A stretch of DNA of 50,003 nucleotides. Source: an uncultured bacterium (lineage in GTDB: Bacteria > Patescibacteriota > Minisyncoccia > Phycocordibacterales > CAINVO01). Shown here in pieces: positions 9,621 through 38,412 of this stretch (positions are counted from its first letter, which is position 1; each line of letters opens with the position of its first letter). Where the stretch lies: NCBI GenBank assembly GCA_903854195.1, contig CAINVO010000034.1, forward strand, positions 1 to 50,003, given 5' to 3'. The notes under the pieces were generated by a model. That model searched no databases. It was not told the origin of the DNA and saw only the letters and a list, made by a program, of their open reading frames with translations. The position numbers were made by a program, and so were the translations under genes.

Positions 9621-9683
9621 AGATAAGGAGTGTCTCTTGAACGGGTTAGGTTTTACGCTTAGTGAAAGAGACACTTCTTATCT
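9621..9683 (+). repeat. Foldback element family B, copy 1 (degenerate core)
   Basis: 18-bp arms (17/18) around GAACGGGTTAGGTTTTACGCTTAGTGA; ends 2 nt from rnc stop. Confidence 0.85.
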
Positions 9684-9685
9684 GG

Positions 9686-10372
9686 CTACCAACTCATTTT
9701 ATCAAGTGCCTTGCGAGCTGCTTCTTGTTCAGCTTCTTGTTTTGATTTTCCACTACCTTCAATAATTTTTTCGTCGTTTACAAAAAGCCCAATAGTAAAT
9801 TGTTTGTTATGATCTGGACCTGTCTCGCGTACAGTTTTATACAAAGGAGTTGCTCCAAGTTTTTCTTGTGCCTTTTCCTGAAATAAACTTTTAGAATCTA
9901 TGAAAAGTCTTTTTTCTATAATGTCTTCTATCAAATTAAAAAGTTGGCTGCCAATAAAATCTCGAGCTGCGTCATATCCCTGATCAAGATAAATTGCACC
10001 GATAACTGCTTCAAAAGTATTTGCGAGGATATAAAGTCTAGCGCGTCCTGTATCTTTGGCCTCACCACGAGACAAAAGTAAAAGATCATTCATTCCAATT
10101 TTTTCCGCTGCAATAGCGAGAGTATTTGCATTCACAAGTGACGAGCGGAATGCCGTGAGCTCACCCTCAGGCTTTGTCTCATACTTACCAAAAAGATAAT
10201 CAGTAACCACAAGCTCTAGCACGGCATCACCCAAAAATTCTAGACGTTCATTGTGCTCAAGTTTAAGCTGTTTATTCTCATTTATATAGGAACGATGAAT
10301 AAAGGCCTGTTTTAATAGGTCTTTATTTTTGAATGTTGTTTTGATATTTTTCTGAAAAACTGATAGGTCCAT
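9686..10372 (-). CDS. rnc: Ribonuclease III
   Basis: HNERLEFLGDAVL signature, C-terminal dsRBD (GKSKQEAEQEAA). Confidence 0.98.
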   Translation of the reverse strand: MDLSVFQKNIKTTFKNKDLLKQAFIHRSYINENKQLKLEHNERLEFLGDAVLELVVTDYLFGKYETKPEGELTAFRSSLVNANTLAIAAEKIGMNDLLLLSRGEAKDTGRARLYILANTFEAVIGAIYLDQGYDAARDFIGSQLFNLIEDIIEKRLFIDSKSLFQEKAQEKLGATPLYKTVRETGPDHNKQFTIGLFVNDEKIIEGSGKSKQEAEQEAARKALDKMSW

Positions 10373-10390
10373 GGTAGTTGTGAAATAGGG

Positions 10391-11302
10391 CTACTTATTA
10401 GGTTTCTCGGCAAGCAAAATGTTTATAGCTTTAGTCACTATTGGCAGGATATCATTATAAAAATTAAGGTCAAGGATCTCTTTAAGATTGAACCATTTGG
10501 CATCGTCCAGCCCGCCTGAAGATTCCAACTTTAATTCAACATATTCTGCTTGCCCTAAAAAGTATGTAACCTGTTTACGAAGCTTACCTTTTTCAGGGTG
10601 AGTAGCGATATATTCATTTTTTGCGAGTTCATCTCTGATTTTGATATCCAAACCAATCTCTTCTTTAATTTCTCGCATAGTTCCCTCTTCAACATTTTCA
10701 CCTGGCTCTAATCTACCTTTTGAAAGGGTCCAATGTCCGAACACATCATGAACCATGGCAAGATAAATCTGATTCTCGTGACGGGCATAAACAACAGATC
10801 CTCCAAGTACTTCAATAGGCATTTCTTCATACGGAATATCTTTTCTAAATTTTTTCTTTTTTGAAACCTCATCTTTTCCTGGTTCACCCATTTCCTTGTA
10901 AACTGCACCAAGCACTCCGTTTACAAATTTTCCAGATGTATCTCCTCCGAAAGTCTTTGCAAGTTCGATTGCCTCATTTATTGCAACCTTCGCAGGGACT
11001 TCTTTTTTATCAGCAAAAAGAAGCTCATACAAGCCAATACGAAGAATATTTCTATCTGCAATTGCAATTTTATCAATAGGCCACTCAGGAGCTGCCTTTT
11101 CTATAATAGTGTCTAATTCTGAACGCTTCTTTAAAATATTTTGAACTAGCGTCCTCATGAATGAAAAATCTCCCATACCGGGAGCGAACTCTTCGGCATT
11201 ACGAGTAAAAATAGTCTCAATTTCAGAGTCAGGACGACTTGAAAAATCCCACTCAAAGAGTGATTGGAGAGCAATACTTCGTGAAAGATGCCTGTTTGCC
11301 AT
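10391..11302 (-). CDS. nusB: NusB antitermination factor fused to a C-terminal Nudix hydrolase
   Basis: NusB motifs DRNILRIG, VAINEAIELAK, FVNGVL; intact Nudix box GRLEPGENVEEGTMREIKEEIGL. Confidence 0.93.
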   Translation of the reverse strand: MANRHLSRSIALQSLFEWDFSSRPDSEIETIFTRNAEEFAPGMGDFSFMRTLVQNILKKRSELDTIIEKAAPEWPIDKIAIADRNILRIGLYELLFADKKEVPAKVAINEAIELAKTFGGDTSGKFVNGVLGAVYKEMGEPGKDEVSKKKKFRKDIPYEEMPIEVLGGSVVYARHENQIYLAMVHDVFGHWTLSKGRLEPGENVEEGTMREIKEEIGLDIKIRDELAKNEYIATHPEKGKLRKQVTYFLGQAEYVELKLESSGGLDDAKWFNLKEILDLNFYNDILPIVTKAINILLAEKPNK

Positions 11303-11406
11303 GTTTTGTATTAAGAACTTTAACCAACAACTGACTTATTTACCATCGAAACCAAATTTTATGAAAATTTACTAGTGTTAGCTAGTGACCGACTGAACAT
11401 TAAAAA

Positions 11407-11628
11407 CTATCTACCTTCTGCTGTCTTTATTTTTGCAGCTTTTTTATTGGCCTTTGCAAGAATATCTACAACAACTTTACCTTTGTATGTACCGCATTTT
11501 GGGCACATAACATGCTTTTCACGTGGGTTTCCACATTTTTCACACAGAGTAAAAGAAGCGCTAGCTAAAGCGTGATGAGATCGGCGGCTGCCGGTCTGTC
11601 CTCGATTGTGTCGCATGTGATTTACCAT
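11407..11628 (-). CDS. rpmF: 50S ribosomal protein L32 (Zn-binding type)
   Basis: RRSHHAL, CxxC..H..CxxCG.YKG; start reset to ATG 11628. Confidence 0.93.
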   Translation of the reverse strand: MVNHMRHNRGQTGSRRSHHALASASFTLCEKCGNPREKHVMCPKCGTYKGKVVVDILAKANKKAAKIKTAEGR

Positions 11629-17794: not shown

Positions 17795-18959
17795 TTACGC
17801 TATCAAACCACGATTCTTCATGTTCTCAATTTTAAACTGAGCAGCAAGACTTTGAGAATTTGATGTTGAAACATTTCCAGCAAGTTGAGCTTTGCGATTC
17901 TTACGTGCAATGAATATGTAAGTCATGAATGCACTCCACATTAGAAGTCCTAGGATAAATAGACCAACTTTCAAGTTGAAACTAATACCAGTTGCGGGCA
18001 CTTGATTTAGAAAGACACCAGCGACAGGAGTACCATTAGTAGGTGTGATATCACGAGTGACAGTTACACCAGCAGTGTTAATGTTTCCAACATTTGTGTT
18101 ACAACTTCGAGAGATGGACTGACCATCTGTAGATGTGATAGTAACTGTTGCTGTTTTGTATCCAGCTGTTGCATACATACCTGTAATACTTTGACCATTT
18201 CCATAAAGGTTATCTGATCCTGTCCAAGAATAACTGAATGATCCGCTTCCACCTGATGCAGTTGCTGACCAAGTTACTGGAGTATTAATTCCACTTCCTG
18301 TGTAAGAAACTACACAAGATCCACTCATTGCTGAATAGTTTGTAGCATTATTTCCATAATATCCATTTGGATAGTAAACACCATTGTTGTAATAGTTAAC
18401 GGCTAACTGATTATTACTATTGTTTCCATTATTATTGTTATTGTTTGAAACTATTGTTGTATTGTTTGTACTCCCAGAAGTTGTTCTTTGTGGAATATAA
18501 ACGTAGTGACTTGCCTGAGGCATATAAGTGTAACCACCGCCTGTAGAATATCCACCATTGTATGAGTAACCATGTGAAGCACATGATGAACAAGAAGATC
18601 CTGAACTATATGAACTAGTTGGTACGTATGTATCGTAGTTGGAAGTTCCTGAATATGAAGGGGTGTATGTATGTGTATGTATCGTAATTTGATGTACCAG
18701 AACTTGAGGGAGTATATGTGTAAGTATCATAGTTGGATGTACCTGAACTTGATGGAGTGTAAGTATCATAGTTGGATGTACCTGTATCATATGTATCGTA
18801 GTTGGAAGTTCCAGTATCAAAAGTATCATAATTAGATGTACCGTAATCTACTGAATCCCCTCCACCAGCATAAACTTTTACAGACAACCCGACAAAAACA
18901 ATTGAAAACACCATTATTACTGTAGTGATTTGAATTATTTTATTTAGTATATTTTTCAT
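17795..18959 (-). CDS. Repeat-rich surface protein (about 387 aa) with signal peptide, Ig/PKD-like domain and VPATG-TM-basic tail; frameshifted at about 18665-18682
   Basis: ORFs 18615..18959 and 17795..18829 carry the same GTSNYDTY repeat in different frames, switching within ACATACACATACATACAC. Confidence 0.85.
18628..18843 (-). repeat. Six intragenic GTSNYDT(Y/F) peptide repeats
   Basis: Repeated GG(T/A)AC(A/T)TCNAA(C/T)TA(C/T)GATAC units with variable spacers. Confidence 0.9.
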
Positions 18960-19993: not shown

Positions 19994-20041
19994 GCGATTA
20001 TAAAGTGCTATGACTGTTACATTTGAGACCAATTTTACAGC

Positions 20042-20782
20042 CTATATTATAGGGCTTTTATCAACAAAGTCAGCTTGTACAACATAGCGATCCGTTTTTT
20101 TACCAAAACTATCACACGTCGAAAGTGTAAGCATAGGGCTAGTTTTATCAAAGTCTACCCAAGAATTATTCTCATTTTGCAAAACTACAGTTCGCACCTT
20201 ATATACATAATGTGTGCTACTTGAATAAACATCTATAATATCGCCGGCTGCAAGCTTATCTAATCCATTAAAAGCCTTGTAAGCTTTATTATTTACGATT
20301 TTAAAACCTGTACTATGTCCAAATAGAAACATATTTCCTGATCCTGGAGTGCCAGACCCTGGGTAATGAACAACGCCTTTTGAAAGCTCTTGGTCCAAGT
20401 AGTCAACATCAGTAGTGTTTGGGTTACGGACAACAATATCAGTTCCTGATTTAATAATCACAACCCGAAGAGGAATATCACCTACTTGTATTTTTTGGGC
20501 CTTATTCTGAGCATTATTTAATACATTTTGGTCTGTAGTTGTGGTAACAGAATTATCCCCTTTTATCACAGAAAGTGACCATGCGTTCAAATTATCAAAA
20601 AAGTTAGTGGAAGTATCTTCTTGAAACTCACTTGGAACAAACCCAATTATATACAGGACTGTAAAGCTTAAAATAAAAATCGGAATAAAGAAAAGTCCGA
20701 ATTGAAACTCTGGATATTTTAAAAGATGTTTCCAAATTGTCCTTATTTTACTATCCTTGTTGTTACTCATATTAGTTGACAT
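20042..20782 (-). CDS. Sortase family protein
   Basis: N-terminal TM; GNMFLFGHS (His), LTLSTC (Cys), DRYVV (Arg) catalytic triad pattern. Confidence 0.9.
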   Translation of the reverse strand: MSTNMSNNKDSKIRTIWKHLLKYPEFQFGLFFIPIFILSFTVLYIIGFVPSEFQEDTSTNFFDNLNAWSLSVIKGDNSVTTTTDQNVLNNAQNKAQKIQVGDIPLRVVIIKSGTDIVVRNPNTTDVDYLDQELSKGVVHYPGSGTPGSGNMFLFGHSTGFKIVNNKAYKAFNGLDKLAAGDIIDVYSSSTHYVYKVRTVVLQNENNSWVDFDKTSPMLTLSTCDSFGKKTDRYVVQADFVDKSPII

Positions 20783-20831
20783 TTTAACCGATTATGATAT
20801 AATACTGTGTAAATAATAACTATACAAATTT

Positions 20832-21968: not shown

Positions 21969-21972
21969 TTAG

Positions 21973-25938: not shown

Positions 25939-25991
25939 AATATTATAAATTAGGCTGTTATTTAAAGATTAAATAAAATAAACATAAAAAA

Positions 25992-27277: not shown

Positions 27278-27280
27278 AAA

Positions 27281-27356: not shown

Positions 27357-27456
27357 TTTAATTTTTGACTATCATACCATGTAAATTTACACGAATCGGC
27401 CTAACACTTTCCCCTCTTTTTCATATTGCCGCTACAGAAATATATACTATTTGGAA

Positions 27457-27873
27457 TTATTTGTCCAACATTCCAGCGACTTTTTGGTCAAGATTATCTA
27501 TATTTCTCTGAGCTTCTTTATGCTCCTCAATATGTTTAAGAAAGAAAGAAACTGAACCCCTATTTGTTGGAATATCTGTACGACAAACAACCTTCATGAA
27601 TTTTTTCCACCATTTATTTAAGTTTATTATTGATCTCACAAAAATACCCTCAACCGTTGTAAGAATATTATGACCAATATTATGCCATGAACCCGCAGTT
27701 AACAAATGTGAAAATTTATTTATAAATCCAGAAAATGAACCTAGCCATTTATCTGTCTTATTAAAAGTAACAGAGACAACTTTTCTACCTGTCTGTAGTT
27801 CAGAAATCTTGTTTCCAAGAAGAGCCACTAGACCGACAAGCGACAAGGACAATGTAATGTATAGATAAATCAT
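27457..27873 (-). CDS. Hypothetical membrane-anchored protein
   Basis: 138-aa ORF with N-terminal hydrophobic helix. Confidence 0.7.
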   Translation of the reverse strand: MIYLYITLSLSLVGLVALLGNKISELQTGRKVVSVTFNKTDKWLGSFSGFINKFSHLLTAGSWHNIGHNILTTVEGIFVRSIINLNKWWKKFMKVVCRTDIPTNRGSVSFFLKHIEEHKEAQRNIDNLDQKVAGMLDK

Positions 27874-27881
27874 AAGAGTAA

Positions 27882-27908
27882 GCGCGCGAGGGCAAAGCCC
27901 TCGCGCGC
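27882..27908. other. Very GC-rich perfect hairpin after tsf
   Basis: GCGCGCGAGGGC-AAA-GCCCTCGCGCGC; no strong U-tract. Confidence 0.8.
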
Positions 27909-27914
27909 AGTTAA

Positions 27915-28505
27915 TTATTTCTCCAAAACCCCGAACCGCACAAACTTTGCAACCTCGATCTTTTCACCAAACTTCTGAATAGCGTTCTCAATTAATTGAC
28001 TAATTGTGAGATCTGGATTTTTGATAAACGGCTGTTCAAGTAAAATCTTATCCTGAAAATATGAAGCCAACTTCCCTTCTAAAATCTTTGCTTTCATTTC
28101 TTCTGGTTTTCCTTCAACTTCCTTTTCAAAAACTTCAGTAGCTTTTTGTTTGGCTTCCTCACTTATCTCATCTTTACTAAGATATGTAGGACAAGCCGCT
28201 GAAATATGCATGGCAATATCATAAGCAAGTTTTTTAAACTCTTCATTCTTTGAAACAAAGTCTGTCTCAGAAACAAGCTCAACCATGGCACCAATGGTGT
28301 CATTTGAGTGAATATAAGCAGCTACAGTACCAGCTCCTAGAGTACGGTCTGATTTCTTTGAGGCAATGTCTGATCCTTTCTTTCTAAGTAGGATTAAAGC
28401 CTTCTCCTTGTCACCACCAGCCTCTTCTAGAGCTTTTTTACACTGCATAACAGAAATACCTGTCATATCTCGTAATTCCTTAATTTGTTCAGTAGTTATA
28501 GCCAT
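27915..28505 (-). CDS. tsf: Elongation factor Ts (short form)
   Basis: IKELRDMTG..MQCKKAL, ETDFV; downstream of rpsB. Confidence 0.97.
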   Translation of the reverse strand: MAITTEQIKELRDMTGISVMQCKKALEEAGGDKEKALILLRKKGSDIASKKSDRTLGAGTVAAYIHSNDTIGAMVELVSETDFVSKNEEFKKLAYDIAMHISAACPTYLSKDEISEEAKQKATEVFEKEVEGKPEEMKAKILEGKLASYFQDKILLEQPFIKNPDLTISQLIENAIQKFGEKIEVAKFVRFGVLEK

Positions 28506-28630
28506 ATGATTAAATTTATATAAATTATATGTAAATATTTTCTTATCCTTATAATATAACCGCCATTCTCATATTATTGGACCTATAGGATATATAATAA
28601 CAAAAAACGACAAATGTCGCCTTGTAGTTA

Positions 28631-29341
28631 TTAACCTATTTTCTTTGCGCCTTTGTATGCCTCTACAAACTTCTCCATGAAGAAAGTTACGCTTGAAACA
28701 GAAGAGTCGTTTCCAACAATAGCGTAGTCAACTTTTTTAATATCACAATCAGATCCACAAAGAGCAATTACGGGCACACCCATCTGTTTTGCCTCTGCTA
28801 CAGCGATAGCTTCTTTTTTAGAATCAATAACAAACATTGCAGCTGGCATTTTTGTCATAGAAGAAAGTCCTGAGAAAAGTACATCTAAACGAACAATTTC
28901 TCGGTCGATCAAAAGTCTTTCTTTTTTAGTATATTTTACAAGTTCACCCTTTTCTTTCTGAGAAACAAGGTCATGAAGCTTTTCAACTCGCTTACGAATA
29001 CTGTCGAAATTAGTTAGAGATCCTCCAACCCATCGTCCAGCAACAAAAGGCATATCTAGTGATTCACCTGCCTTTCGAGCAATAGCCTGAGCTTCGCTCT
29101 TTCCACCAACAATCAAAATTTGTTTGTTTTCTGAAGCAAGCTTCTTTACAAATTCAAGAGCTCCGTTTAATGACTCTTCTGTTTTTTCTAGATTAAAAAT
29201 TTCTATCTTGTTTTTAGCACCGAAAATAAAAGGCTTTGTAGATGGGTGACGGCGTGACTTAATAAAGCCAAAATGAGCTCCAGCCTTAAAAAGGGAGTCC
29301 ATCAGTTCGCCTGTTTTCTTTACTGTTGTTTCATTTGTCAT
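28631..29341 (-). CDS. rpsB: 30S ribosomal protein S2
   Basis: AGAHFG, RWVGGSLTN, AVAEA, GND; start reset to ATG 29341. Confidence 0.97.
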   Translation of the reverse strand: MTNETTVKKTGELMDSLFKAGAHFGFIKSRRHPSTKPFIFGAKNKIEIFNLEKTEESLNGALEFVKKLASENKQILIVGGKSEAQAIARKAGESLDMPFVAGRWVGGSLTNFDSIRKRVEKLHDLVSQKEKGELVKYTKKERLLIDREIVRLDVLFSGLSSMTKMPAAMFVIDSKKEAIAVAEAKQMGVPVIALCGSDCDIKKVDYAIVGNDSSVSSVTFFMEKFVEAYKGAKKIG

Positions 29342-29533
29342 GTGTTCGGATATAGTAGCAAAAAGGGTGATTTTATGCAATACCAGGCTAAATATGGCTA
29401 AAACAATCCCTGCCAATATGTTTTCTCACTAAAGCACATAGACAGGGATTGTTTATCCAATTTGCCTCCTATTGCATGATCAACCTTTCAAAAATGTGAC
29501 GGTTGGCATATAATCCACGTAGTCAAACAGTAT

Positions 29534-29767
29534 ATGAAAAATATAAAAAAAGGAATTTACAGAAGCTTTAAAAGTCCAGAAATGACCTATGAGGTTCTTG
29601 GTGTCGCTTCGCACAGCGAAAACCCAGAGCAAAAGCTCGTGGTTTACAAAGCACTTTATGGCGAGAAAGAACTATGGGTTCGCCCTGCGGAAATGTTCTT
29701 GGAAATTATTGACCGTCCGGAACACAACTACAAAGGTCCCAGATTCCTTATGATTGAAGAAAAATAA
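29534..29767 (+). CDS. DUF1653-like small protein
   Basis: Y.VLGVA.HSE...VVYKALYG...WVRP.EMF...PRF pattern. Confidence 0.85.
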   Translation: MKNIKKGIYRSFKSPEMTYEVLGVASHSENPEQKLVVYKALYGEKELWVRPAEMFLEIIDRPEHNYKGPRFLMIEEK

Positions 29768-29780
29768 TAAAACTAGGGGA

Positions 29781-29848
29781 AAAAATCCTTATATTCTTTT
29801 TGCGAGTTAGCGGAACGCTTTAGCAAAAAAAAAAATATAAGGGTTTTT
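29781..29848 (+). repeat. Foldback element family B, copy 2 (variant core)
   Basis: Imperfect arms of about 23 bp around GAGTTAGCGGAACGCTTTA between convergent DUF1653 gene and prfA. Confidence 0.75.
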
Positions 29849-30815
29849 ATTTTTCCAAACCAGCCTGGTACTGCTCCAAACTCTGAATAATAGCATCCAT
29901 TTTACCCAAGAAAATACCTTCAATATTGTGCCAAGATTCTTTTATACGGTGGTCAGTCACGCGATCCTGAAGAATGTTATACGTACGGATCTTCTCTGAT
30001 CTATCCCCTGTTCCTATTTGAGCCTTTCTGTTGGCAGCAAATTTTTTGGCATCTTCTTCTTGTTTCATTGCTTCAAGTTTAGCCAAAAGAATAGACATTG
30101 CCTTTTCACGATTTTTAAGCTGACTGCGCTCACTAGTTGAACGAACATCAATACCTGTTGGCTTGTGAATAAGACGTACAGCTGTTTCAACTTTATTAAC
30201 ATTTTGACCACCAGCACCTCCAGATCTAGAGAATTCCATTTCAATATCTACAGGATTAATTTCTATACTGATTTTTTTACGAATAGGAAGAATGGCAACT
30301 GATGCAGTAGATGTGTGTACGCGTCCCATTTTTTCTGTTGCAGGTACTCGCTGTATACGATGCACTCCTGTTTCAAAGCGGAGTAATCTGTAAACATCAA
30401 GACCGTGTATTTCAATGGAGGCTTCTTTATAGCCGCCGACCGCGCTTTCTGACTCGGAGACAATGTGACTAGTCCAACCGCGGGAGGCGGCAAAAGCTCG
30501 ATACATGTCAGCTAGCTCTCGAGCAAAAAGTGAAGCTTCTTCCCCTCCGGCACCGGCACGAACTTCAAGAATAATTTCTGATGGAAACTCCTCTTCTTTT
30601 TCTTCAGCCTTCAAGATATCCTGCATTTTTTCCAACAATGTCTTTTGTTGTAGATCTAGGTCAACAAGTTCGGCGTCTGCCATTTCTTTAAAAGCAGGAT
30701 CACTTTCAGCCATAATCAAAACTTCTCCGCGTTGTCGACTGAGTTTTTCATACTCACCTGCCCAATAATTAGTCTTGGGATTTTGTTTAAATTGTTCTAG
30801 GTTTATTTCTGACAT
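29847..30815 (-). CDS. prfA: Peptide chain release factor 1
   Basis: PAT anticodon motif (VPATE), [18 protein letters not shown]. Confidence 0.96.
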
Positions 30816-30896
30816 TTTATAAATTTCTTATTTAACACACACTTGGGATTTTTACTATCACTTATTAGCTCTTACATTCTACCAATTTTTCCAAAC

Positions 30897-30927
30897 AAAA
30901 AAACCACCCAGGATGTGGTGGCTTTTT
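30897..30927 (-). terminator. Hairpin terminator after rpmE
   Basis: CCAC stem flanked by A and T tracts. Confidence 0.55.
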
Positions 30928-30937
30928 GTGAGCTTAG

Positions 30938-31183
30938 CTATTTTTCTGAACTAGTGTCTGAAACTGCTTTTGCTTTTGGTTTTGCACTTGACTGACGAGC
31001 CTTAAACTTTTCGACACGTCCAGCTGTATCTAGTGATTTCTCAAGTCCTGTGTAGAAAGGATGGCAATTACTGCAGATTTCAATATTTATCTTCTCTTTT
31101 GTACTACCAATAGTAAACACATGCCCACAAGCACATGTGGAGGTAGAATCTGCATAAAACTTTGGATGTATGTCTTTTTTCAT
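30938..31183 (-). CDS. rpmE: 50S ribosomal protein L31 (Zn-binding type)
   Basis: MKKDIHP, Cx[17 protein letters not shown]. Confidence 0.97.
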
Positions 31184-31243
31184 ATTTTTATAGGTTTTTA
31201 GAGTATAACAGAAAGTTCTAAAAAGGCAACTCCCTCTTATTTT

Positions 31244-32668
31244 TTACTGATTACCAGCCAAAATATCAATATTTCCTTGAAGCGCCGTTGCCTTTGCAAT
31301 AACCTGATCACCATAAAATTTATTACTACTATTACATGAACTTCCTGAATAATACTTACAAGCGGCGTTTCGTTCAGCTGTATAGCCACCATTTCCAGCC
31401 CCAAGATCAGATAAATACAGGGCAGAAGCCATGAAAGCATCTTTTGGATTCCAAGGATCTGGCTCTGATGAAATACCGAGGGAGGTCTTGAGACGTGAAA
31501 TATTCAGAGCCCAAGTAGAAGCGATAAACTGGGCCGGACCCATAGCCCCACCATAACCAACACTGAAAGGACAAGATACGCGAGTTTTGTAAGGGTCTCT
31601 GCCAAGAGCACCTGTAATGGCAAGAAACGGTTGAACATCTCGACTTGGCTTCATGATGTTTTTAACAGCCACACCTGTGCTAATTTTTATACCACTTCCA
31701 TCTGTAGCATTTGTCAGATAACATGCACCCACGTTTGAGCCAAGGTTACTTTCTTGTTGAATAACTGCGAGTAGAAATGCGGGTCGGACACCAGTCGCGG
31801 CAGAAGCAGCTTTTGCATAAACAACAGCATCTCCGAATTGAATTGAAGGTGCATCACGAAGCGAAAACAAAGCTGTTCGAATTTTTGAAGCCTGTGACTG
31901 TTTGTCTGCAATTGTAGATTGATAATTTTTCTGTTGAGTTTTGTTTAAACTTAAAAGCTTCTTTTTTTGGTTCTGAGCTGCCGTGATGTTTTGCTTTTCT
32001 GTTTCTACGTTCACTTCAATAGCCTGTTCCTGCACTCGCTTATCACTAAGTTGCTGCTTTGTTTGAACATTCTGATCTTTTGAAGATTTTATATCGCCAA
32101 GAATTGATCTTAATGACTGATTTATTGAAGCAAAGGAGTCAAGATCAATAAAAAACTTAGACAGATCTCCTCCACTAAGAAAAGCCTCCGCTAAAGAAAA
32201 ATTTTCGAGTTGGTTTGCCTGATTTATGATACGTCCAAGAGAACCTTGATCATGCCCTATCTGATCTGTAAGGGCATTAATGGTGTTATTAGTTACAGCA
32301 ATATTTTTACTAAGATTATCTATAGCAAGTTTATGAGCTTTGATTTTTAACTGAGCCTGTTTTACCTGTAGATCCAAAATTGAAATATCTCTACTGATTG
32401 ATGAAGCTTGATTTTGTGTAGTCGTAAGCTGACTAGTAACATCTGTGATTTGATTTTCCAAATCAGTCAAAGCTGTTTGACAAGCAATTTTTTGAGCTGG
32501 GGTATCACACTGAACACTCCCATTTGATGCCGCAGCTGATTGAATTTGTACTGCTGTCTGCGCGAAAGCTGGTTGCAAAAAAGAAACCGGATTAAGCACC
32601 AGTGAGAGTAATATTATTGAGATTGAAAATGATAGAAAAATGCTCCGTTTAAATAACGCGATAGGCAT
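31244..32668 (-). CDS. Secreted coiled-coil protein with C-terminal lytic transglycosylase-like domain
   Basis: Signal peptide, long Gln-rich coiled coil, QES catalytic motif, GAMGPAQF, DPWNP.DA; start reset to ATG 32668. Confidence 0.85.
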   Translation of the reverse strand: MPIALFKRSIFLSFSISIILLSLVLNPVSFLQPAFAQTAVQIQSAAASNGSVQCDTPAQKIACQTALTDLENQITDVTSQLTTTQNQASSISRDISILDLQVKQAQLKIKAHKLAIDNLSKNIAVTNNTINALTDQIGHDQGSLGRIINQANQLENFSLAEAFLSGGDLSKFFIDLDSFASINQSLRSILGDIKSSKDQNVQTKQQLSDKRVQEQAIEVNVETEKQNITAAQNQKKKLLSLNKTQQKNYQSTIADKQSQASKIRTALFSLRDAPSIQFGDAVVYAKAASAATGVRPAFLLAVIQQESNLGSNVGACYLTNATDGSGIKISTGVAVKNIMKPSRDVQPFLAITGALGRDPYKTRVSCPFSVGYGGAMGPAQFIASTWALNISRLKTSLGISSEPDPWNPKDAFMASALYLSDLGAGNGGYTAERNAACKYYSGSSCNSSNKFYGDQVIAKATALQGNIDILAGNQ

Positions 32669-32727
32669 AGCCGATATTATACCAATTTTTAAAGAGGAAA
32701 AACAGCTGCAGAACAATGTGTAAACAC

Positions 32728-32857
32728 AATTTAAAAACAAAATAAAAACACACCTTAGGGGGGCTCTCGGAGCGCGACGGCGCGAGAGTGAAGGAAAAAG
32801 TCAACAGACTTTTTACCTGTACCCGATAAAGTGTGTTTTTATTTTTGTTTTTAAATT
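32728..32857 (+). repeat. Foldback element family A, copy 3
   Basis: About 29-bp near-perfect arms; core GGGGCTCTCGGAGCGCGACGGCGCGAGAGTGAAGGAAAAAGTCAACAGACTTTTTACCTGTACCC. Confidence 0.93.
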
Positions 32858-32863
32858 AACACA

Positions 32864-33508
32864 TTACTCAGCAGCTGATTCTCCCTCTTCTTCTTTCTTA
32901 CCTTTCTTCTCAGAGATTTCAATTGCTGATAGATCAACTGGAGTAGCTTCTTCTTCCTTCTCCTCCTTTGGAGCAGCAGTTAGAGCGATAACTTCTTCAG
33001 CTTCTGTAATAAGAGTAACTCCTGCAGGCAATTTGATTTCATTTGCCAATACTTGGCTATCAAATGTAGCGAGTGTAGAAATATCTACTGTTAACTCATG
33101 TGGTAGGTCCTTAGGCAAAGCTTCAATTTCAACTTCGTGCAATACTTTTACAAGTACTCCACCAAGCTCTTTGACAGCTGGAGCAACACCAACGAATTCC
33201 AATGGAACGTGAACTTGAACTTTTTTACCTTTTTCAAGAATATAAAAGTCAACATGTTTAACGACTCCTGTTACAGGATCAACGTAAACATCATGGATAA
33301 GTGCCTCGTGGTCCTCGCCAACACCTTTTAGGGTGATAACGGAAGATTCGCCTGCCTCTTTCCATGCCTTTAGAAAATCAACTTTAGGCACCGAAATAGA
33401 CGTTGACGGCTCTTTACGACCATAAAATACTGCTGGGATAATGCCTGAGGCGCGCATTTCATCCAGTTTCTGGGCGATATCTCGCTTTACAACGTTTAAT
33501 GTAGTCAT
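32864..33508 (-). CDS. rplY: 50S ribosomal protein L25 (long Ctc form)
   Basis: IPAVFYG, HVDFY, VPLEFVG..GGVL; acidic tail; start reset to ATG 33508. Confidence 0.95.
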   Translation of the reverse strand: MTTLNVVKRDIAQKLDEMRASGIIPAVFYGRKEPSTSISVPKVDFLKAWKEAGESSVITLKGVGEDHEALIHDVYVDPVTGVVKHVDFYILEKGKKVQVHVPLEFVGVAPAVKELGGVLVKVLHEVEIEALPKDLPHELTVDISTLATFDSQVLANEIKLPAGVTLITEAEEVIALTAAPKEEKEEEATPVDLSAIEISEKKGKKEEEGESAAE

Positions 33509-33588
33509 GCGAGCCATCATAACCTATTTTGCTTAAAAATCAAGTCTTTATTTAAACAAACCTTCAAAAAATATGAGGTCTATGTACC

Positions 33589-34062
33589 TTAATTACACAA
33601 ATATGAATTGTTGTTGATACCAGTTGAGGTTCCCGACTTGCCAGTACTATCAACACAATATGTTACACCTCCGGACGGACTTGAACTTGCGGCCACTGCC
33701 CATGCATATGTTGGGGTAGTTGATGCAGCACAATAAACATTTGCACCACCCACGGAAGTAATACCTGCGATAAGTCCAGAGACACCATTAGCAACGGACG
33801 CTGTATTAAATGGCGCCTGACTTGTGCACACAGTTTTAGCAGGAGCTGCCGCCACGCCATAGTTACCCTTTGTTGAATAATACATTTCCATCTGAGATCT
33901 AAGATTTACAAGTTGAAGCTGTACGGCTGAAGTTTTGCCTTTCTGTCTAGCAACACTAAGAGCTGCCAAAACGATTCCAGATAAAATAGTAATAATTGCA
34001 ATAACTATCAATAGTTCTATTAGGGAAAAACCTGAATTCGCTTTTTTAGTCATTACTTTCAT
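33589..34062 (-). CDS. Type IV pilin-like protein
   Basis: Prepilin motif G|FSLIELLIVIAII, C-terminal YCVDSTG. Confidence 0.9.
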   Translation of the reverse strand: MKVMTKKANSGFSLIELLIVIAIITILSGIVLAALSVARQKGKTSAVQLQLVNLRSQMEMYYSTKGNYGVAAAPAKTVCTSQAPFNTASVANGVSGLIAGITSVGGANVYCAASTTPTYAWAVAASSSPSGGVTYCVDSTGKSGTSTGINNNSYLCN

Positions 34063-34072
34063 ATTATCAGAT

Positions 34073-34978
34073 TTATAATCTCAAATCTATACGTATCTTT
34101 TCTTCAGCAACTTTCTGCATTGCTAGGCCAGCGCTTGCTGTAATTTTATATGGTGTGTTTTCATCTGTATTTTCAGCAAGATATTTTCTAAGAGCCTGAG
34201 TATAGGCAAAACGAAGCTCAGTACTAACATGAACAATACCTACTCCATTTTCAATACTTTTTTTAACATCTTCAGCAGAGTTTCCTGATGCACCATGAAG
34301 CACTAATGGGATTTTAACAACATTATAAACAGAAGCCACGGCCTCAATATTTAAAGCAGGATCTACCCCACCACGAAGCATTCCATGAAAATTACCAACG
34401 GCAGGGGCAAGCAAATCCACCCCCGTCTCATTTACAAAACGAATTGCATCTTCTGGTTTGGTCAATGAATCAACTGAAAGAGAAGCTCCATCTGGAATAG
34501 CATCGAGCACCTTTGAGGACTGTCCAATGTATCCGAGTTCCCCTTCAATCAAGATGTCTCGTCCCGTTTTTTGCATTAAATCTTTTGCATATTCTACACA
34601 TTTTTTTGCCTCAATAATATTTTCCTCCATTGAAAGTTTTGCCCCATCAAAAATTGCCATGTCGTATCCTGCATCTAGAGCCTCTTTTACCTTTTCAAAT
34701 GAGTATGTGTGATCAGCATTTAGAAAAACAGGCTGTCCCTTTACTCGAAGACTCTGAACAAGAGCCACTGCCTGGTCTAAGCCTATAACCTCCCTCTCAC
34801 CTTCCGATGTTCCAATAATTACTGGAATAGTCTGTTCATTGGTGAGCCCGATTTCTTTTGACACAACCTGCGCAGCTTTTACAACCGCCCAAAAACCTTC
34901 TAGGTTTGAAATATTAAAATGAGCGACAGCTGTCTTTGATTCTGATGCTTCTTTTACGTACTGGCGAAGTGATTTCAT
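34073..34978 (-). CDS. fba: Class II fructose-bisphosphate aldolase
   Basis: NADH, EGELG, AVGNFHG, PLVLHGASG. Confidence 0.92.
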   Translation of the reverse strand: MKSLRQYVKEASESKTAVAHFNISNLEGFWAVVKAAQVVSKEIGLTNEQTIPVIIGTSEGEREVIGLDQAVALVQSLRVKGQPVFLNADHTYSFEKVKEALDAGYDMAIFDGAKLSMEENIIEAKKCVEYAKDLMQKTGRDILIEGELGYIGQSSKVLDAIPDGASLSVDSLTKPEDAIRFVNETGVDLLAPAVGNFHGMLRGGVDPALNIEAVASVYNVVKIPLVLHGASGNSAEDVKKSIENGVGIVHVSTELRFAYTQALRKYLAENTDENTPYKITASAGLAMQKVAEEKIRIDLRL

Positions 34979-35066
34979 TTTGATTGTTGATAATCTGTTA
35001 ATTTGTTGGGCTTATTTTAACATGCCCTGACCTGACAGGATACAGCTCTGTGGTACAATATAGGCC

Positions 35067-36167
35067 ATGAATAATTCATCAATAAATGATTCTGGAGATA
35101 TACAGGCGTCTGACACAGATAAACATGAGGAACCAGTAGGACTAGAATTTTTAGCAATTGGAGACACAGTTATAGATGCTTTTATAAAACTCAAACAAGC
35201 ACATGAAGTAAAAACAGCTGGGAAAGAACCAGAGCTGTGTATGCCGTTTGCGGACAAAATTCCTTATGAGATGTCCGAAGAACTACCCGCAGTAGGAAAC
35301 AGCGCCAACGGTGCAGTCTCCGCAACAAGACTTGGAATGAAATCTGGGATTATCACCAACCTAGGTGACGACCAACACGGTAAAGAATGTTTAGACAGAT
35401 TTCATCTAGAAAATATTGATACATCTCTTATCACTATCCACCAAGGCTTAAAGACAAATTACCATTATGTACTTTGGTTTGAAAAAGATCGAACTATTTT
35501 AATAAAGCATGAAATCTATCCATACAAACTTCCATCAGTTCTGACTCCAAAATGGCTTTATTTAAGTTCCCTCGGAGAAAATTCTCTGGATTATCACAAA
35601 GAAATTTCAGAATATTTAAAAGCAAATCCTTCAATAAATCTTATTTTTCAACCAGGCACTTACCAGATAAAATTTGGTAAAGAAATTCTTGCAGAAATTT
35701 ACAAGCGTTCAAAAATTTTTGTCTGCAACATTGAGGAGGCTCAACACATACTTGGTATCACAGATAGTCGTGATGTCAAAATTCTTATGGAAAAAATATC
35801 AAATCTTGGACCAGAGATTGTAGTACTCACAGACGGACCAGACGGAGCCTATGCTAGATACAAAAGAAATAATCCAGAAAGCGAACAAGGATCAAATCAA
35901 TCGCAAAATTTCGTATCAGTATTTATACCAGCATATCCTGACCCACTTCCTGCATACGAACGAACAGGTGCGGGTGATGCTTTTTGTTCAACATTTTCAG
36001 TGGCTATAGCTCTTGGAAAAACCAAGGAAGAAGCCATGAAATGGGGTTCAATAAATGCAGCTTATGTTGTACAACAAGTTGGTGCCCAGAAAGGACTTTT
36101 ATCAAGAGATCGAGTAGAAAAAATCATGTCTGAAGCTCCATCAGATTGGCAAGTCAAAGAAATCTAA
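35067..36167 (+). CDS. PfkB/ribokinase-family carbohydrate kinase
   Basis: GNSANGA, GDD..G, N.EEA, TGAGDAF. Confidence 0.92.
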   Translation: MNNSSINDSGDIQASDTDKHEEPVGLEFLAIGDTVIDAFIKLKQAHEVKTAGKEPELCMPFADKIPYEMSEELPAVGNSANGAVSATRLGMKSGIITNLGDDQHGKECLDRFHLENIDTSLITIHQGLKTNYHYVLWFEKDRTILIKHEIYPYKLPSVLTPKWLYLSSLGENSLDYHKEISEYLKANPSINLIFQPGTYQIKFGKEILAEIYKRSKIFVCNIEEAQHILGITDSRDVKILMEKISNLGPEIVVLTDGPDGAYARYKRNNPESEQGSNQSQNFVSVFIPAYPDPLPAYERTGAGDAFCSTFSVAIALGKTKEEAMKWGSINAAYVVQQVGAQKGLLSRDRVEKIMSEAPSDWQVKEI

Positions 36168-36209
36168 AGCCAGAATATTTTTAATTTAAATTTTCAACTA
36201 GTTTTTAGA

Positions 36210-37235
36210 CTAGAAAATATTTTTTCTAGTACGAACTTTTTCAATAGCTATCCCAATATCTGACTCCCCCATTCCGTAATATTCTAAAAGTTCATCGGGT
36301 GTACCGGATTGTCCAAAACGATCACACACTCCAATAAATTCAATTGGTACTGGAAAAAATCTAGCTACACACTCTGCAATAGCACTACCCATTCCTCCAT
36401 ATACTTGATGCTCTTCTATTGTCACAAGTGCTCCAGCTTCTCGAGCTAAAGCAATGATTGAAGCTTCATCGAGGGGTTTAATTGTGGAAAGATTTAAAAC
36501 CTTAATAGATCCGAGTCCCTCATCTGCATATTTTTTTGCAACTTTAAGTGCTTTGTAAAGAAGTGCCCCTGTTGCAATCACACCTACATCAACTTTTTTA
36601 AAGTCCTTTATGAAATCTTTTGGATCAAAAAAAACCTGAGCCTGCCCAATTTTAAAAGGTGTTTCTTCGCTAGTCATGATTGGAGTTTTCTCGCGCGCTA
36701 GGCGTATATACGTTGGTTCTTTTGTAGTGGCAGCTGCCATTGTAGCCTTACGCGCCTCTATAGCATCGCATGGGGATATCACCACCATATTTGGAATAAC
36801 CCGAGTAATAGCAATGTCCTCAATAGCCTGATGAGTTCCACCATCTGGCCCTACAGAAACCCCAGCATGTGACCCTGCAATTTTCACAGGGACATCGTTG
36901 TAGCAAATTGTTGTGCGAATCTGTTCCCAATTTCTTCCAGGAGAAAACATTGCATAAGAGGAGATAAAAGGTATTTTACCCATAGCCGCCATACCTGAAG
37001 CAACTGATGCGAGATTTTGTTCAGCAACCCCCACCTGTACAAAACGCTCAGGAAATCTTTCCTTAAATAAATACATTTGAGTTGACTCTGAGAGGTCCGC
37101 GCAAAGACCCACTACATTTTCATCAAGCTTTCCTGCCTCAAGCAATCCATCACCAAATCCACGACGTATTGGCAACATCTCAATGTCTTTTTCAAAAAGT
37201 TTTGGATTTAGTTTTAAATTATTTTCTTTTGGCAT
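36210..37235 (-). CDS. Transketolase, C-terminal subunit
   Basis: GVAEQN, GPDGGTHQAIED, IEEHQVYGGMG. Confidence 0.93.
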   Translation of the reverse strand: MPKENNLKLNPKLFEKDIEMLPIRRGFGDGLLEAGKLDENVVGLCADLSESTQMYLFKERFPERFVQVGVAEQNLASVASGMAAMGKIPFISSYAMFSPGRNWEQIRTTICYNDVPVKIAGSHAGVSVGPDGGTHQAIEDIAITRVIPNMVVISPCDAIEARKATMAAATTKEPTYIRLAREKTPIMTSEETPFKIGQAQVFFDPKDFIKDFKKVDVGVIATGALLYKALKVAKKYADEGLGSIKVLNLSTIKPLDEASIIALAREAGALVTIEEHQVYGGMGSAIAECVARFFPVPIEFIGVCDRFGQSGTPDELLEYYGMGESDIGIAIEKVRTRKNIF

Positions 37236-37284
37236 TTTATTTTTTATTTGTGTACATTAATCAATGTTTATTTTATGCACATTT

Positions 37285-38178
37285 TTACTGATGTTCACTA
37301 GAAATTTTTCCTCCCAAAGTTCGGAGTTCGGCAAGAGCCATATCGGCTTCGGCTTTACTTGGTGGTTTACCATGCCATTCTGGTTTTCGTTCAAACTCTT
37401 TTACACCACGGCCTGGAATAGTATGAGCAATGATGACAGATGGCTTTTCAAAAAAGGCTTTTGCTTGTTCTATAGCATCAGCAATTTGTTGAAAATTATG
37501 ACCATCAATTTGCTGAACATGCCAACCAAAAGACTTCCACTTTTCATATAAGGGAGAAAGGGGCATAACATCTTCAGTAAAACCATCTATTTGAATATTA
37601 TTTCTATCCACAATTGCAATGAGATTACTTAATCTTTCTTTACTTCCCAACATTGCAGCCTCCCAATTTTGACCCTCGTCAAGCTCTCCATCACCAAGCA
37701 AACAATATATAAAACGATCAATTCCAGATGGACCTCTAAGTTCAGCTCCTGTACGATTTTTAGTATTTATTTGGTCTGCTATCGCCATACCAACAGCTTG
37801 TGAAAGACCTGACCCTAATGGACCTGAGCTATTTTCTAAATATGGTAAAAAATCTCGATGTGGATGACCCTGCAAACGTGAACCGAATTTTCTTAAAGTT
37901 TGCAACTCTTCTACTGGAAAATATCCACTATGGGCCATGGTTGCATAAAGCACTGGACAGATATGTCCATTTGAAAGTACTAGCCTGTCACGCTCCGGCC
38001 AAGTGGGATTTTTAGGATCGTGACGAAGTGAATGAAAATATAAAGTAGTAAAAATATCTGCCATACCAAGTGGTCCGGCAGTATGACCAGACCCAGCAGT
38101 AACAAGCATTGAGATAATAGATTGCCTTATCTCATTTGCGGTTTTTTCAAGCAGGATAATTCCTTGATCTGTTAACAT
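37285..38178 (-). CDS. Transketolase, N-terminal (TPP-binding) subunit
   Basis: SGH, DRLVLSNGH, LQGHP, GDGELDEG...N TPP motif. Confidence 0.94.
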   Translation of the reverse strand: MLTDQGIILLEKTANEIRQSIISMLVTAGSGHTAGPLGMADIFTTLYFHSLRHDPKNPTWPERDRLVLSNGHICPVLYATMAHSGYFPVEELQTLRKFGSRLQGHPHRDFLPYLENSSGPLGSGLSQAVGMAIADQINTKNRTGAELRGPSGIDRFIYCLLGDGELDEGQNWEAAMLGSKERLSNLIAIVDRNNIQIDGFTEDVMPLSPLYEKWKSFGWHVQQIDGHNFQQIADAIEQAKAFFEKPSVIIAHTIPGRGVKEFERKPEWHGKPPSKAEADMALAELRTLGGKISSEHQ

Positions 38179-38205
38179 TTTATTTATTTAAATTATACCA
38201 AAGTA

Positions 38206-38277
38206 TTGCAAATATATACACGACCTTTTTACTAAGCGCTTCGCTAACCCGTAAAAAGGTCGTGTATATATTTGCAA
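38206..38277 (-). repeat. Foldback element family B, copy 3 (core reversed)
   Basis: 27-bp perfect arms; 38232-38252 is the reverse complement of ACGGGTTAGCGAAGCGCTTAG. Confidence 0.93.
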
Positions 38278-38334
38278 CCATTTAGCGTTATTCAACAAAC
38301 CAGGCATTGGATTTTTGACGAGAATAATTCTGAG

Positions 38335-38412
38335 GTAGCCCTGTAGGAAAATATCTTTTTGAACGGGTTAGCGAAGCGCTTAGAGAAAAAAGATATTTTC
38401 CTACAGGACTAC
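38335..38412 (+). repeat. Foldback element family B, copy 4
   Basis: 26-bp arms (25/26) around GAACGGGTTAGCGAAGCGCTTAGAGA. Confidence 0.93.

What the first reader, a model, noticed from the sequence alone, without database searches (positions are those of the whole stretch)
9621..38412. Repeat family B: fixed apex ACGGGTTAGCGAAGCGCTTAG on long stems of unrelated sequence
Seen: four copies (9621-9683, 29781-29848, 38206-38277, 38335-38412). The 21-nt core is identical in two and degenerate in two, but the 18-27 bp arms share little beyond T/A runs at the core junction. This is the reverse of REP, MITE or attC logic, where ends are conserved and the middle varies. The core occurs in both orientations relative to flanking genes. 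It contains GCGAAGC, an established unusually stable DNA mini-hairpin. Inference: a protein-recognised ssDNA/cruciform or RNA apex that spreads while its stem is built from local sequence.
Basis: partly seen in the sequence, partly recalled or inferred. Interest (0 to 1): 0.8.

Follow-up and report, generated by a model that had tools for sequence, protein, structure and literature searches.

The report
Capped terminator hairpin repeat family
Four gene-end hairpins in this tiny-genome bacterium belong to a previously undescribed family of mobile, terminator-like DNA palindromes that keep an almost fixed 26-33-letter tip while their stems differ from copy to copy.

Summary
All four hairpins lie at the stated places. 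The genome (G000, an 814-kb CPR/Patescibacteria MAG) has six copies, and I compiled 41 non-redundant copies from about 14 genomes.

Architecture: A-tract, 3-4 free bp, five pyrimidines, GA(A/G)C, GNG bulge, TTAGCG, loop (AAG, TAG, GAA or AGTCNTCGAG), CGCTT(T)AG, NGA, five purines, T-tract. That is a bidirectional intrinsic-terminator hairpin with a self-folding cap. It sits 0-30 nt after stop codons of housekeeping genes.

It matches no Rfam family and no paper holds the sequence. It is concentrated in one CPR order (6 of 151 genomes). A Vallitaleaceae chromosome carries two copies with the identical 26-nt cap, inside a block its sister genomes lack. A 68%-GC metagenome contig carries one copy.

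The unit of gain and loss is the whole hairpin. At one site three related genomes are empty, hold family B, or hold another capped-hairpin family. One MAG has three near-identical whole copies. The two arms change in concert. So "stem built from local sequence" is not supported. No transposase co-occurs.

Best reading: a non-autonomous palindromic terminator-like repeat with a sequence-constrained cap whose reader is unknown.

The scan noted analogous conserved-tip families elsewhere in this genome. No sequence look-up matched this one.

The parts
9621..9683 (+). Family-B copy 1 (degenerate cap). It has an 18-bp stem and a 27-nt cap at 9639-9665, GAACGGGTTAGGTTTTACGCTTAGTGA. It begins 3 nt after the stop of the RNase III gene (9686-10372, minus strand) and lies 43 nt before the SMC gene start (9578).
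   Evidence: (57.8 bits, E=2.8e-11).
29781..29848 (+). Family-B copy 2 (degenerate, imperfect arms). The cap is at 29800-29826, TTGCGAGTTAGCGGAACGCTTTAGCAA. Here Watson-Crick pairs replace the tandem G.A, and the loop is GAA. It overlaps the stop codon of a peptide-chain release factor gene (29847-30815, minus strand).
   Evidence: (48.8 bits, E=6.7e-9).
38206..38277 (-). Family-B copy 3. It has a perfect 23-27-bp stem; the cap reads TTACGGGTTAGCGAAGCGCTTAGTAA on the minus strand (38229-38254). It lies about 10 nt upstream of an extended -10 like TGGTATAAT of the transketolase N-terminal gene (37285-38178, minus strand).
   Evidence: (72.4 bits). The promoter-like motif was read by eye.
38330..38417 (+). 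Family-B copy 4. The stem is 28-31 bp; the cap is at 38361-38386, GAACGGGTTAGCGAAGCGCTTAGAGA. This cap is identical to both copies in the Vallitaleaceae chromosome. It begins 13 nt after the stop of the ribulose-phosphate 3-epimerase gene (38430-39152, minus strand).
   Evidence: (73.6 bits).

Best explanation
Family B is a lineage-restricted, non-autonomous palindromic repeat that has the anatomy of a bidirectional Rho-independent terminator with a cap. An A-tract and a T-tract flank a stem, and the loop is replaced by a 26-33-nt self-folding cap.

On the strand reading GGGTTAGCG the cap stacks on the stem in this order: tandem G.A/A.G; one covarying pair (A-U, G-C or A.A); a C-G pair; a 3-nt GNG bulge; a 6-bp helix with a fixed U.U mismatch; and a small loop.

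Shown:
- The whole hairpin, stem plus cap, is gained, lost and copied as one unit, next to gene ends and existing terminators.
- Other capped-hairpin families occupy the same sites in relatives.
- The arms change in concert while the cap stays nearly fixed.

Inferred:
- In the cell it works as a transcription stop and 3'-end hairpin for the gene it follows. The orientation bias reflects selection on that role.
- The cap is kept because something reads its sequence.
- Perfect arms are maintained by hairpin-templated correction (template switching within quasipalindromes, a known mutational route that I recall and did not test) or by selection for pairing.
For: Reality and anatomy:
- 41 non-redundant copies share the layout. 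The 5' arm is 85-98% pyrimidine at positions -1 to -5 and 65-80% A at -10 to -12. The cap start is GAAC in 31 copies and GAGC in 6. The cap end is TGA in 19, AGA in 12 and CGA in 6.
- Plain terminators of the same genome (n=71) are only 46-65% pyrimidine at -1 to -5.
- Hairpins begin 0-30 nt after stop codons. In the window and on C33/C26 the genes are housekeeping: rnc, a release factor, rpe, rpsI and a PBP.
- Pair counts: the outer helix has 11 of 14 pairs with changes on both sides, and 82% of cells are paired against 27-53% when partners are slid. Pair 13-42 is A-U in 18, G-C in 7 and unpaired in 8.

Whole hairpin as the unit:
- After one conserved conventional terminator, G451 is empty, G453 has a ~99-nt B hairpin and G452 has an A1-type capped hairpin.
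- Three copies in one MAG share ~26-bp stems plus cap at unrelated loci, with two compensated pair changes.
- Sister genomes of the Vallitaleaceae MAG have one terminator in 116-178 nt where it has ~700 nt containing two copies.
- Turnover at orthologous sites: the B sites of G001 hold an A1-type hairpin, an A2-type hairpin or plain terminators in G000.

Concerted arms: a symmetric AAAG/CTTT indel.

Constraint on the cap: the same 26-mer occurs in a CPR and a Firmicute, and the inner helix is invariant.
Against: - No termination, transcript end or expression data exist. Only DNA runs hold the window.
- The strand on which the cap folds best is not the mRNA strand in most copies. The sense strand has the tandem G.A; it folds 1.6-4.8 kcal/mol better as RNA in three examples; and it carries 16 G.T against 7 A.C stem mismatches. 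Yet the cap is antisense to the mRNA in 16 of the 20 assignable copies. A simple 'better RNA terminator' role does not predict this.
- No transposase or other candidate mobiliser co-occurs, and I saw no target-site duplication. The copying mechanism is therefore unknown.
- Gene calls for the orientation counts are ORF heuristics. Some copies are orthologues and so are not independent.
- The genome scans score only part of the first-look candidates, so the distribution may be wider than found.
Confidence: 0.55

Rival explanations
1. The cap is a host-functional RNA (or RNA-protein) module. It would be a fixed binding or processing signal mounted on terminator stems. For example, it could be a determinant or anti-determinant for RNase III on the 18-39-bp double-stranded stems, or a site for a 3'-end-binding protein. 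On this reading the copies persist because the host uses them, not because they are selfish.
For: - The inner helix, the bulge and the U.U mismatch are sequence-invariant.
- The tandem G.A plus a covarying pair is a typical RNA structural motif.
- The stems are long enough for RNase III, and the genome encodes RNase III. One copy directly follows the rnc gene.
- A cousin in another family of the class keeps the junction GAGC-GGG...CGA with a different distal part.
Against: - Distribution is sporadic: 6 of 151 genomes of the order, 0 of 150 others in the phylum scan, and 1 weak hit among 150 others in the class scan.
- Copy number varies from 5 to 13 among relatives.
- Orthologous sites are empty or hold other families.
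- The well-folding strand is antisense to the mRNA in 16 of 20 assignable copies.
- Several cap families in an ~800-gene genome would need several readers.
Confidence: 0.22
2. A very small mobile cap (about 26-40 nt, perhaps with its pyrimidine/purine tract) inserts into or converts the loops of pre-existing terminator hairpins. The outer stem is therefore local DNA.
For: - Conservation decays outward from the cap.
- A 7-nt insertion, GTCTTCG, in the cap's own loop separates the long and short types at one orthologous site.
- Different cap families sit at the same terminator sites.
- The Vallitaleaceae pair shares only the inner 11 bp of stem.
Against: - At the one clean empty/filled site the whole hairpin is the indel.
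- Three copies in one MAG share their entire stems.
- The pyrimidine tract is a compositional rule with many different sequences, not one sequence shared by descent.
- The Firmicute stems are GC-rich and unlike their surroundings.
Confidence: 0.12
3. The cap is a single-stranded-DNA signal. The hairpin would extrude on one DNA strand and be read by a replication, priming or recombination enzyme, in the manner of ssoA-type lagging-strand origins (conserved CS-6 in a hairpin loop) or of HUH-enzyme hairpin sites.
For: - The cap contains TAGCGA, and in two variants TAGCGT. TAGCGT equals the CS-6 given in passages of PMC4598088.
- The structure-favoured strand is mostly the transcription template strand rather than the mRNA strand.
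Against: - There is no RSB-like sequence near any copy; the only match in the window is one chance-level hit at 46049.
- The copies are chromosomal, multi-copy and at gene ends.
- No Y1 HUH gene was found in 4 of 5 carrier genomes.
- In G452 the five copies split 2 versus 3 between replication strands by GC skew.
- No viral, phage or plasmid hit was found.
Confidence: 0.08

Closest known systems
REP / REPIN elements mobilised by RAYT transposases (Bertels & Rainey 2011, PMC3116915, and Di Nocera et al. 2013, PMC3733652; search listing and abstract starts seen)
   Same: - Short extragenic palindromes at gene ends, in both orientations.
- Multi-copy, gained and lost between relatives.
- Pairing is kept by compensated change.
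- Proposed terminator or mRNA-stabiliser roles (recalled).
   Different: - In REPs the conserved part is the stem with a GTAG/CGTC tag, and a RAYT gene is present. Here the stem is free and the tip is fixed.
- No Y1 gene was found in 4 of 5 carrier genomes.
- Copy number is only 1-13 per genome.
SPRITE (pneumococcal Rho-independent terminator-like repeat), Correia/NEMIS and ERIC repeats (recalled, not read here)
   Same: - Dispersed repeats that act as, or resemble, terminators or RNase III/RNase E substrates when transcribed.
- Orientation-dependent effects on neighbouring mRNAs.
   Different: - Those families are conserved along their whole length, or at terminal inverted repeats.
- None is known to me to have a fixed apex on free stems.
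- They belong to other phyla.
Bidirectional intrinsic (Rho-independent) terminators
   Same: - A-tract, stem and T-tract.
- Placed 0-30 nt after stop codons and between convergent genes.
- Plain versions occupy the same sites in relatives.
   Different: - Ordinary terminators have 3-8-nt loops with no sequence conserved between genes. In this genome the commonest loops are TTGC, TTTC and GAAA.
- Here a 26-33-nt structured cap is conserved across genomes and phyla.
IS1272 / TnSha1 (IS1182 family) 'inverted-repeat-replacing' insertion at hairpins (Wan et al. 2017, PMC5678879, abstract read; Furi et al. 2016, PMC4923244, listing only)
   Same: - Mobile DNA that targets inverted-repeat or terminator structures.
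- No target-site duplication.
   Different: - Those are full insertion sequences with a transposase gene and conserved terminal repeats.
- Here the elements are 60-100 nt with no transposase. DDE_Tnp_1 is found in 1 of 5 carrier genomes.
Small dispersed repeats (SDR, 21-27 nt) of heterocystous cyanobacteria (Elhai et al. 2008; recalled, only cited in papers listed)
   Same: - Very small repeated units with conserved predicted structure.
- Apparent mobility without a known enzyme.
   Different: - Different phylum and different sequences.
- SDRs are not described as caps of terminator hairpins.
ssoA single-strand origins of rolling-circle plasmids (CS-6 and RSB; passages of PMC4598088)
   Same: - A conserved short motif (TAGCGT/A) in the terminal loop of a long hairpin whose stem sequence is less conserved.
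   Different: - No RSB and no plasmid context.
- Many chromosomal copies at gene ends.

Membership tests
REP/REPIN (RAYT-dependent) | Conserved palindromic stem sequence shared by copies, with a GTAG or CGTC tag at one end | tested here: not met
   The stems are unrelated between copies, and 11 of 14 outer pairs change on both sides. No shared terminal tag is visible in the 41 aligned copies.
REP/REPIN (RAYT-dependent) | A Y1 HUH (RAYT/IS200-like) transposase gene in the carrier genomes | tested here: not met
   PF01797 was found in 1 of 5 carrier genomes (G108 only). G000, G001, G033 and G133 had none. These are MAGs that are 94-100% complete.
Intrinsic bidirectional terminator | A stem-loop followed by a T-tract and preceded by a complementary A-tract, downstream of a stop codon | tested here: met
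   A is 65-80% at positions -10 to -12 of the 5' arm, with matching T on the 3' arm. In 20 of 39 copies exactly one ORF end lies within 30 nt, and in 3 more an ORF end lies within 30 nt on both sides. The simple scanner misses these hairpins because it allows loops of only 3-8 nt.
Intrinsic bidirectional terminator | Transcripts actually end at the T-tract | not testable with these tools
   No RNA run holds the window.
MITE | Conserved terminal inverted repeats and a target-site duplication | tested here: not met
   The termini differ in every copy. Three recent copies show no direct repeat at their borders; the A/T-rich flanks merely extend the palindrome.
Integron attC site | Conserved R''/R' core sites at the base of the stem, with a variable tip | tested here: not met
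   The conservation pattern is the reverse: tip fixed, base free. An IntI gene was not searched for specifically. Each carrier has one or two tyrosine recombinases, a family that is also found in all 14 control genomes.
ssoA single-strand origin | CS-6 (TAGCGT) in the terminal loop, plus RSB (TTATGCCGAGAAAATTT) in the stem | tested here: not met
   TAGCGA or TAGCGT is present in the cap. RSB is absent: the window has one match with 3 mismatches, at 46049, and 35 of 100 shuffles do as well.
Any Rfam family | A covariance-model match at the gathering score | tested here: not met
   At gathering thresholds only a tRNA was found. At E<=5 only sub-threshold miRNA-precursor and PK-BYV matches lie on the hairpins.
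Kink-turn | C-stem, then a 3-nt bulge, then G.A/A.G immediately 3' of the bulge on the same strand | tested here: not met
   By inspection of alignment A5, the tandem G.A lies 5' of the GNG bulge and is separated from it by two pairs. The K-turn definition is recalled.

The most novel reading that the evidence does not exclude
Family B is one of several competing lineages of transposase-less 'capped hairpins'. Each is a 60-100-nt palindrome whose structured cap, rather than its ends, is the heritable recognition element. They insert beside terminators, replace one another at the same sites, regenerate perfect arms by hairpin-templated copying, and can cross phyla (CPR, Firmicutes, a high-GC organism). 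The cap would be read by a widely conserved host machine on one folded DNA or RNA strand. That would make this a new mode of small-element mobility and a new class of 3'-end signal.
Probability: 0.2. Interest if true: 0.75.

Novelty: new variant of a known kind. Interest (0 to 1): 0.55.

Why it matters
CPR/Patescibacteria have tiny genomes, few known regulators and almost no experimental genetics. In these genomes, one family of gene-end hairpins keeps a fixed structured tip across species, and even across phyla, while everything else in the hairpin drifts. That points to an unidentified reader of the tip, or to an unidentified copying mechanism that needs no element-encoded enzyme.

The family also gives a concrete, clonable 26-nt motif with which to ask how termination, RNase III processing and small-repeat mobility work in these organisms. 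It further shows that 'terminator slots' turn over between interchangeable capped-hairpin families.

Tried and rejected
- **Rfam:** gathering and E<=5 scans of the window found no family on the hairpins.
- **Literature:** six forms of the core sequence were searched in full texts and 0 papers hold them. A CPR/terminator/hairpin word search found nothing specific. bioRxiv supplements are closed, so a 2026 preprint that maps prokaryotic non-coding families (listing) could hold this family unseen.
- **Viral, phage and plasmid collections:** no hit.
- **Exact 19-mer ...TTAR outside the own genome:**
  - Genome contigs gave 7 matches in 6 loci, 3 of them centred in palindromes.
  - Metagenome contigs gave 5 loci, 1 of them palindromic.
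  - The 8 non-palindromic matches (Xanthomonas, Sutterella, Bacteroidota, Nitrosomonas and 4 metagenome loci) are about what my own arithmetic gives for chance in genome contigs (about 9 expected at uniform composition).
- **Sequencing runs:** no RNA holder is listed. Contigs from four DNA runs were laid on 20001-40000 and showed no joint or variant at the hairpins. Coverage was low.
- **Empty-site tests:** G000 versus G001 are too diverged (about 70% identity) for intergenic alignment. A second G453/G451 site was not syntenic.
- **Half-sites:** I looked for half-sites separated by a large insert, which would indicate a full-length parent element. The search gave only noise.
- **Mimicry or complementarity:** the cap shares only chance 11-mers with the rest of G000.
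- **Promoter scan** for antisense promoters beside two copies: at chance level.
- **Replication-strand bias:** 2 versus 3 copies in G452, so no signal.
- **Motif readings:** K-turn, attC, boxA and T-loop readings were rejected by inspection.
- **Earlier-findings look-ups by sequence:** one unrelated weak match and one with nothing.

Full report
**1. The observation**

Two carry the exact 21-mer ACGGGTTAGCGAAGCGCTTAG, one on each strand; 100 shuffles of the window gave none.

I laid the whole genome: G000, 814,274 bases, 45 contigs, 36.9% GC. The window is contig C34. A survey of inverted repeats there showed many long, near-perfect hairpins with small loops and A-/T-tract flanks. A minority have large loops that fall into families.

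Family B has six members in G000: the four in the window plus C33:9590-9643 and C26:14107-14167. A covariance model built from ten copies scored them at E from 1.6e-15 to 6.7e-9. All four window copies fold as long hairpins on either strand, with z from -3.6 to -12.2.

**2. Anatomy**

I compiled 41 non-redundant copies from G000, its congener G001, other genomes of the same order, a Firmicute and a metagenome contig. The layout, from 5' to 3', is:
- an A-tract (65-80% A at positions -10 to -12);
- 3-4 unconstrained base pairs;
- five pyrimidines (85-98% Y at -1 to -5);
- GAAC (31 copies), GAGC (6) or another tetramer (4);
- G-N-G;
- TTAGCG;
- a loop;
- CGCTT(T)AG;
- TGA (19), AGA (12), CGA (6) or another triplet (4);
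- five purines;
- the mirror of the stem, and a T-tract.

The loop is AAG in 30 copies, TAG in 2, AGTCNTCGAG in 8 (the long type) and TTTTA in one degenerate window copy. The window copy at 29800-29826 was not among the 41; its loop is GAA.

Plain terminators of G000 (n=71) are only 46-65% pyrimidine at -1 to -5. The pyrimidine/purine tract therefore belongs to the family and is not a general terminator feature.

On the strand reading GGGTTAGCG, the cap continues the stem as follows:
- G.A and A.G;
- one pair that covaries (A-U in 18, G-C in 7, A.A or other in 8 of 33 aligned copies);
- C-G (31 of 33; U-G once; T-A in the C33 copy);
- a three-base bulge;
- a six-pair helix with an invariant U.U.

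The outer helix shows changes on both sides at 11 of 14 pairs. The inner helix never covaries; 4 of its 6 pairs are invariant. In three copies Watson-Crick pairs replace the tandem G.A.

It is not the conserved feature.

**3. Position and orientation**

In G000 the hairpins begin 3-18 nt after, or overlap, the stop codons of RNase III, a release factor, ribulose-phosphate epimerase, ribosomal protein S9 and a penicillin-binding protein. The exception is 38206-38277, which is a second hairpin just before the next gene.

I examined 39 copies with an ORF heuristic:
- 21 lie between co-directional genes. In 15 the cap is antisense to the mRNA and in 6 it is sense.
- Counting by hand only the cases where exactly one ORF end lies within 30 nt gives 16 antisense and 4 sense, with 19 unassigned.

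Oddly, the strand that folds better is the other one:
- it carries the tandem G.A;
- it has 16 G.T against 7 A.C stem mismatches in 37 copies;
- it folds 1.6-4.8 kcal/mol better as RNA in three examples.

In the one nearly complete chromosome available (G452), GC skew places 2 copies on one replication strand and 3 on the other.

**4. Distribution**

Exact-pattern scans:
- The TTTAG form gave 26 hits among 185,579 species genomes. 25 are centred in unique palindromes and all 25 lie in CPR MAGs, nine genomes in all. The remaining hit, in Melghiribacillus, has no palindrome.
- The TTAG form gave 7 matches. Three are centred in palindromes: two in a Vallitaleaceae chromosome and one in a Candidatus Taylorbacteria MAG of the window's order. 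Four non-palindromic matches are at about chance level.
- One of 5 metagenome loci is a palindrome, in 68%-GC DNA.
- Viral contigs gave 0 hits in two scans.

Covariance-model scans:
- 6 of 151 genomes of the order, counting G000;
- only G000 itself among the 151 of the phylum scan;
- G000 plus one weak cousin among the 151 of the class scan;
- only the carrier itself among 151 genomes of the Vallitaleaceae order.

These scans score only part of the first-look candidates, so absence is 'not found'. Copy numbers are 7 in G001 and 13, 5 and 12 in the related genomes G451, G452 and G453. Several G451 contigs end inside a copy.

**5. What moves**

Three results show that the whole hairpin is the unit.

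(a) One conserved conventional terminator is followed by nothing in G451, by a ~99-nt B hairpin in G453, and by a hairpin with a different 53-nt cap (A1 type) in G452.

(b) One MAG has three copies whose ~26-bp stems and caps are nearly identical, at loci with unrelated flanks. Two of their few differences are compensated pairs.

(c) In the Vallitaleaceae chromosome the two copies lie in inverted orientation about 300 nt apart. Their stems are 32-39 bp and GC-rich. They sit between convergent leuA and aconitase genes. Two sister genomes have only one bidirectional terminator there, in 116-178 nt.

Further turnover at orthologous sites:
- One G000 copy (C26) is orthologous to a G001 copy. Both follow the same PBP gene and both have the long cap, but their stems are unrelated.
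- Other G001 copies correspond in G000 to an A1-type hairpin (C21:51881), an A2-type hairpin (C29:~18110-18215) or plain terminators.
- At one orthologous site whose flanks are 84% identical, the long and short caps differ by a 7-nt indel in the loop, and the stems have diverged far more than the flanks.
- At another site a 4-nt indel is mirrored in both arms.

The arms therefore change in concert. I saw no case of one arm being older local sequence.

**6. What might copy or read it**

Named transposase and related families in carrier genomes:

| Family | Carrier genomes with a hit |
|---|---|
| Y1 HUH | 1 of 5 |
| Reverse transcriptase | 3 of 5 |
| DDE_Tnp_1 | 1 of 5 |
| TnpB zinc ribbon | 0 of 5 |
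| Tyrosine recombinase | 5 of 5 (also 14 of 14 control genomes) |

Other checks:
- No target-site duplication is visible.
- The cap has no notable match elsewhere in the genome.
- The resemblance to ssoA origins is limited to TAGCGA/T. The companion RSB is absent.

**7. Reading**

The anatomy and placement are those of bidirectional intrinsic terminators. The dynamics are those of small dispersed palindromic repeats such as REP, SPRITE or Correia. The conservation logic is inverted: the tip is fixed and the stem is free. No mobilising gene is apparent.

I therefore file it as a new variant of a known kind, with 0.55 confidence in the composite statement. The identity of whatever constrains the cap remains open. 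The mismatch between the better-folding strand and the mRNA strand is unexplained.

**8. Context from the scan**

Earlier notes on other pieces of this genome describe a ~55-nt three-way-junction cap family and a 19-21-nt conserved-tip family on terminator hairpins. My survey saw the first of these as the A1 and A2 types.

Noticed in passing
window 22183-22301; also G000 C29:16704-16814, C21:51881-52019, C25:10784-10898, C12:19642-19758; G452:C1 ~11,100 and ~275,100: A second capped-hairpin family (A1). Its 51-59-nt cap appears to hold two small hairpins on a junction (TTGCACAGG...CCGAGCA...), on 27-43-bp unique stems. It occupies sites that hold family B in sister genomes.
   Followed up: partly
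window 3327-3433; also G000 C7:14551, C37:8860, C43:1992, C43:12355, C19:5803, C29:~18110-18215: A third capped-hairpin family (A2). Its ~55-nt cap has nested helices that covary between copies (for example ACATCC/GGATGT versus CTCTGT/ACAGAG). It has no Rfam match at E<=5.
   Followed up: partly
L120 1491-1566 (G477:C1:490705-490770): A cousin hairpin in another family of the class. It keeps the junction GAGC-GGG-TT...AGCGA but has a different, longer distal part. This suggests that the junction is the most persistent piece.
   Followed up: no
L023 7560-8130 (G041, Vallitaleaceae chromosome): A ~600-nt non-coding block that is absent from sister genomes. It consists of two GC-rich capped hairpins in inverted orientation, a 300-nt AT-rich spacer with its own small hairpin, and a second terminator. 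It has no match in phage or plasmid collections.
   Followed up: partly
window 38186-38196 (minus strand): An extended -10 like TGGTATAAT lies about 10 nt upstream of the ATG of the transketolase N-terminal gene and directly after hairpin 38206-38277. This would give a leaderless or very short-leader mRNA.
   Followed up: no
G452:C1 379244-382214 (L091/L092): Two family-B hairpins bracket four accessory genes (epimerase, NADAR, MBL-fold, peptidase S51) between pth and rpsA.
   Followed up: partly
G000 contigs C32, C39, C11, C15, C18, C31: Short contigs carry reverse-transcriptase ORFs (506 and 250 aa open frames) and DDE transposase ORFs. These are probably a group II intron and IS copies that broke the assembly.
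   Followed up: no
L046 215-250 and 360-410 versus L060: The flanks of one orthologous hairpin are about 95% identical between two genomes whose hairpin stems are about 50% identical. The flanks may belong to a conserved structured RNA or gene end.
   Followed up: no
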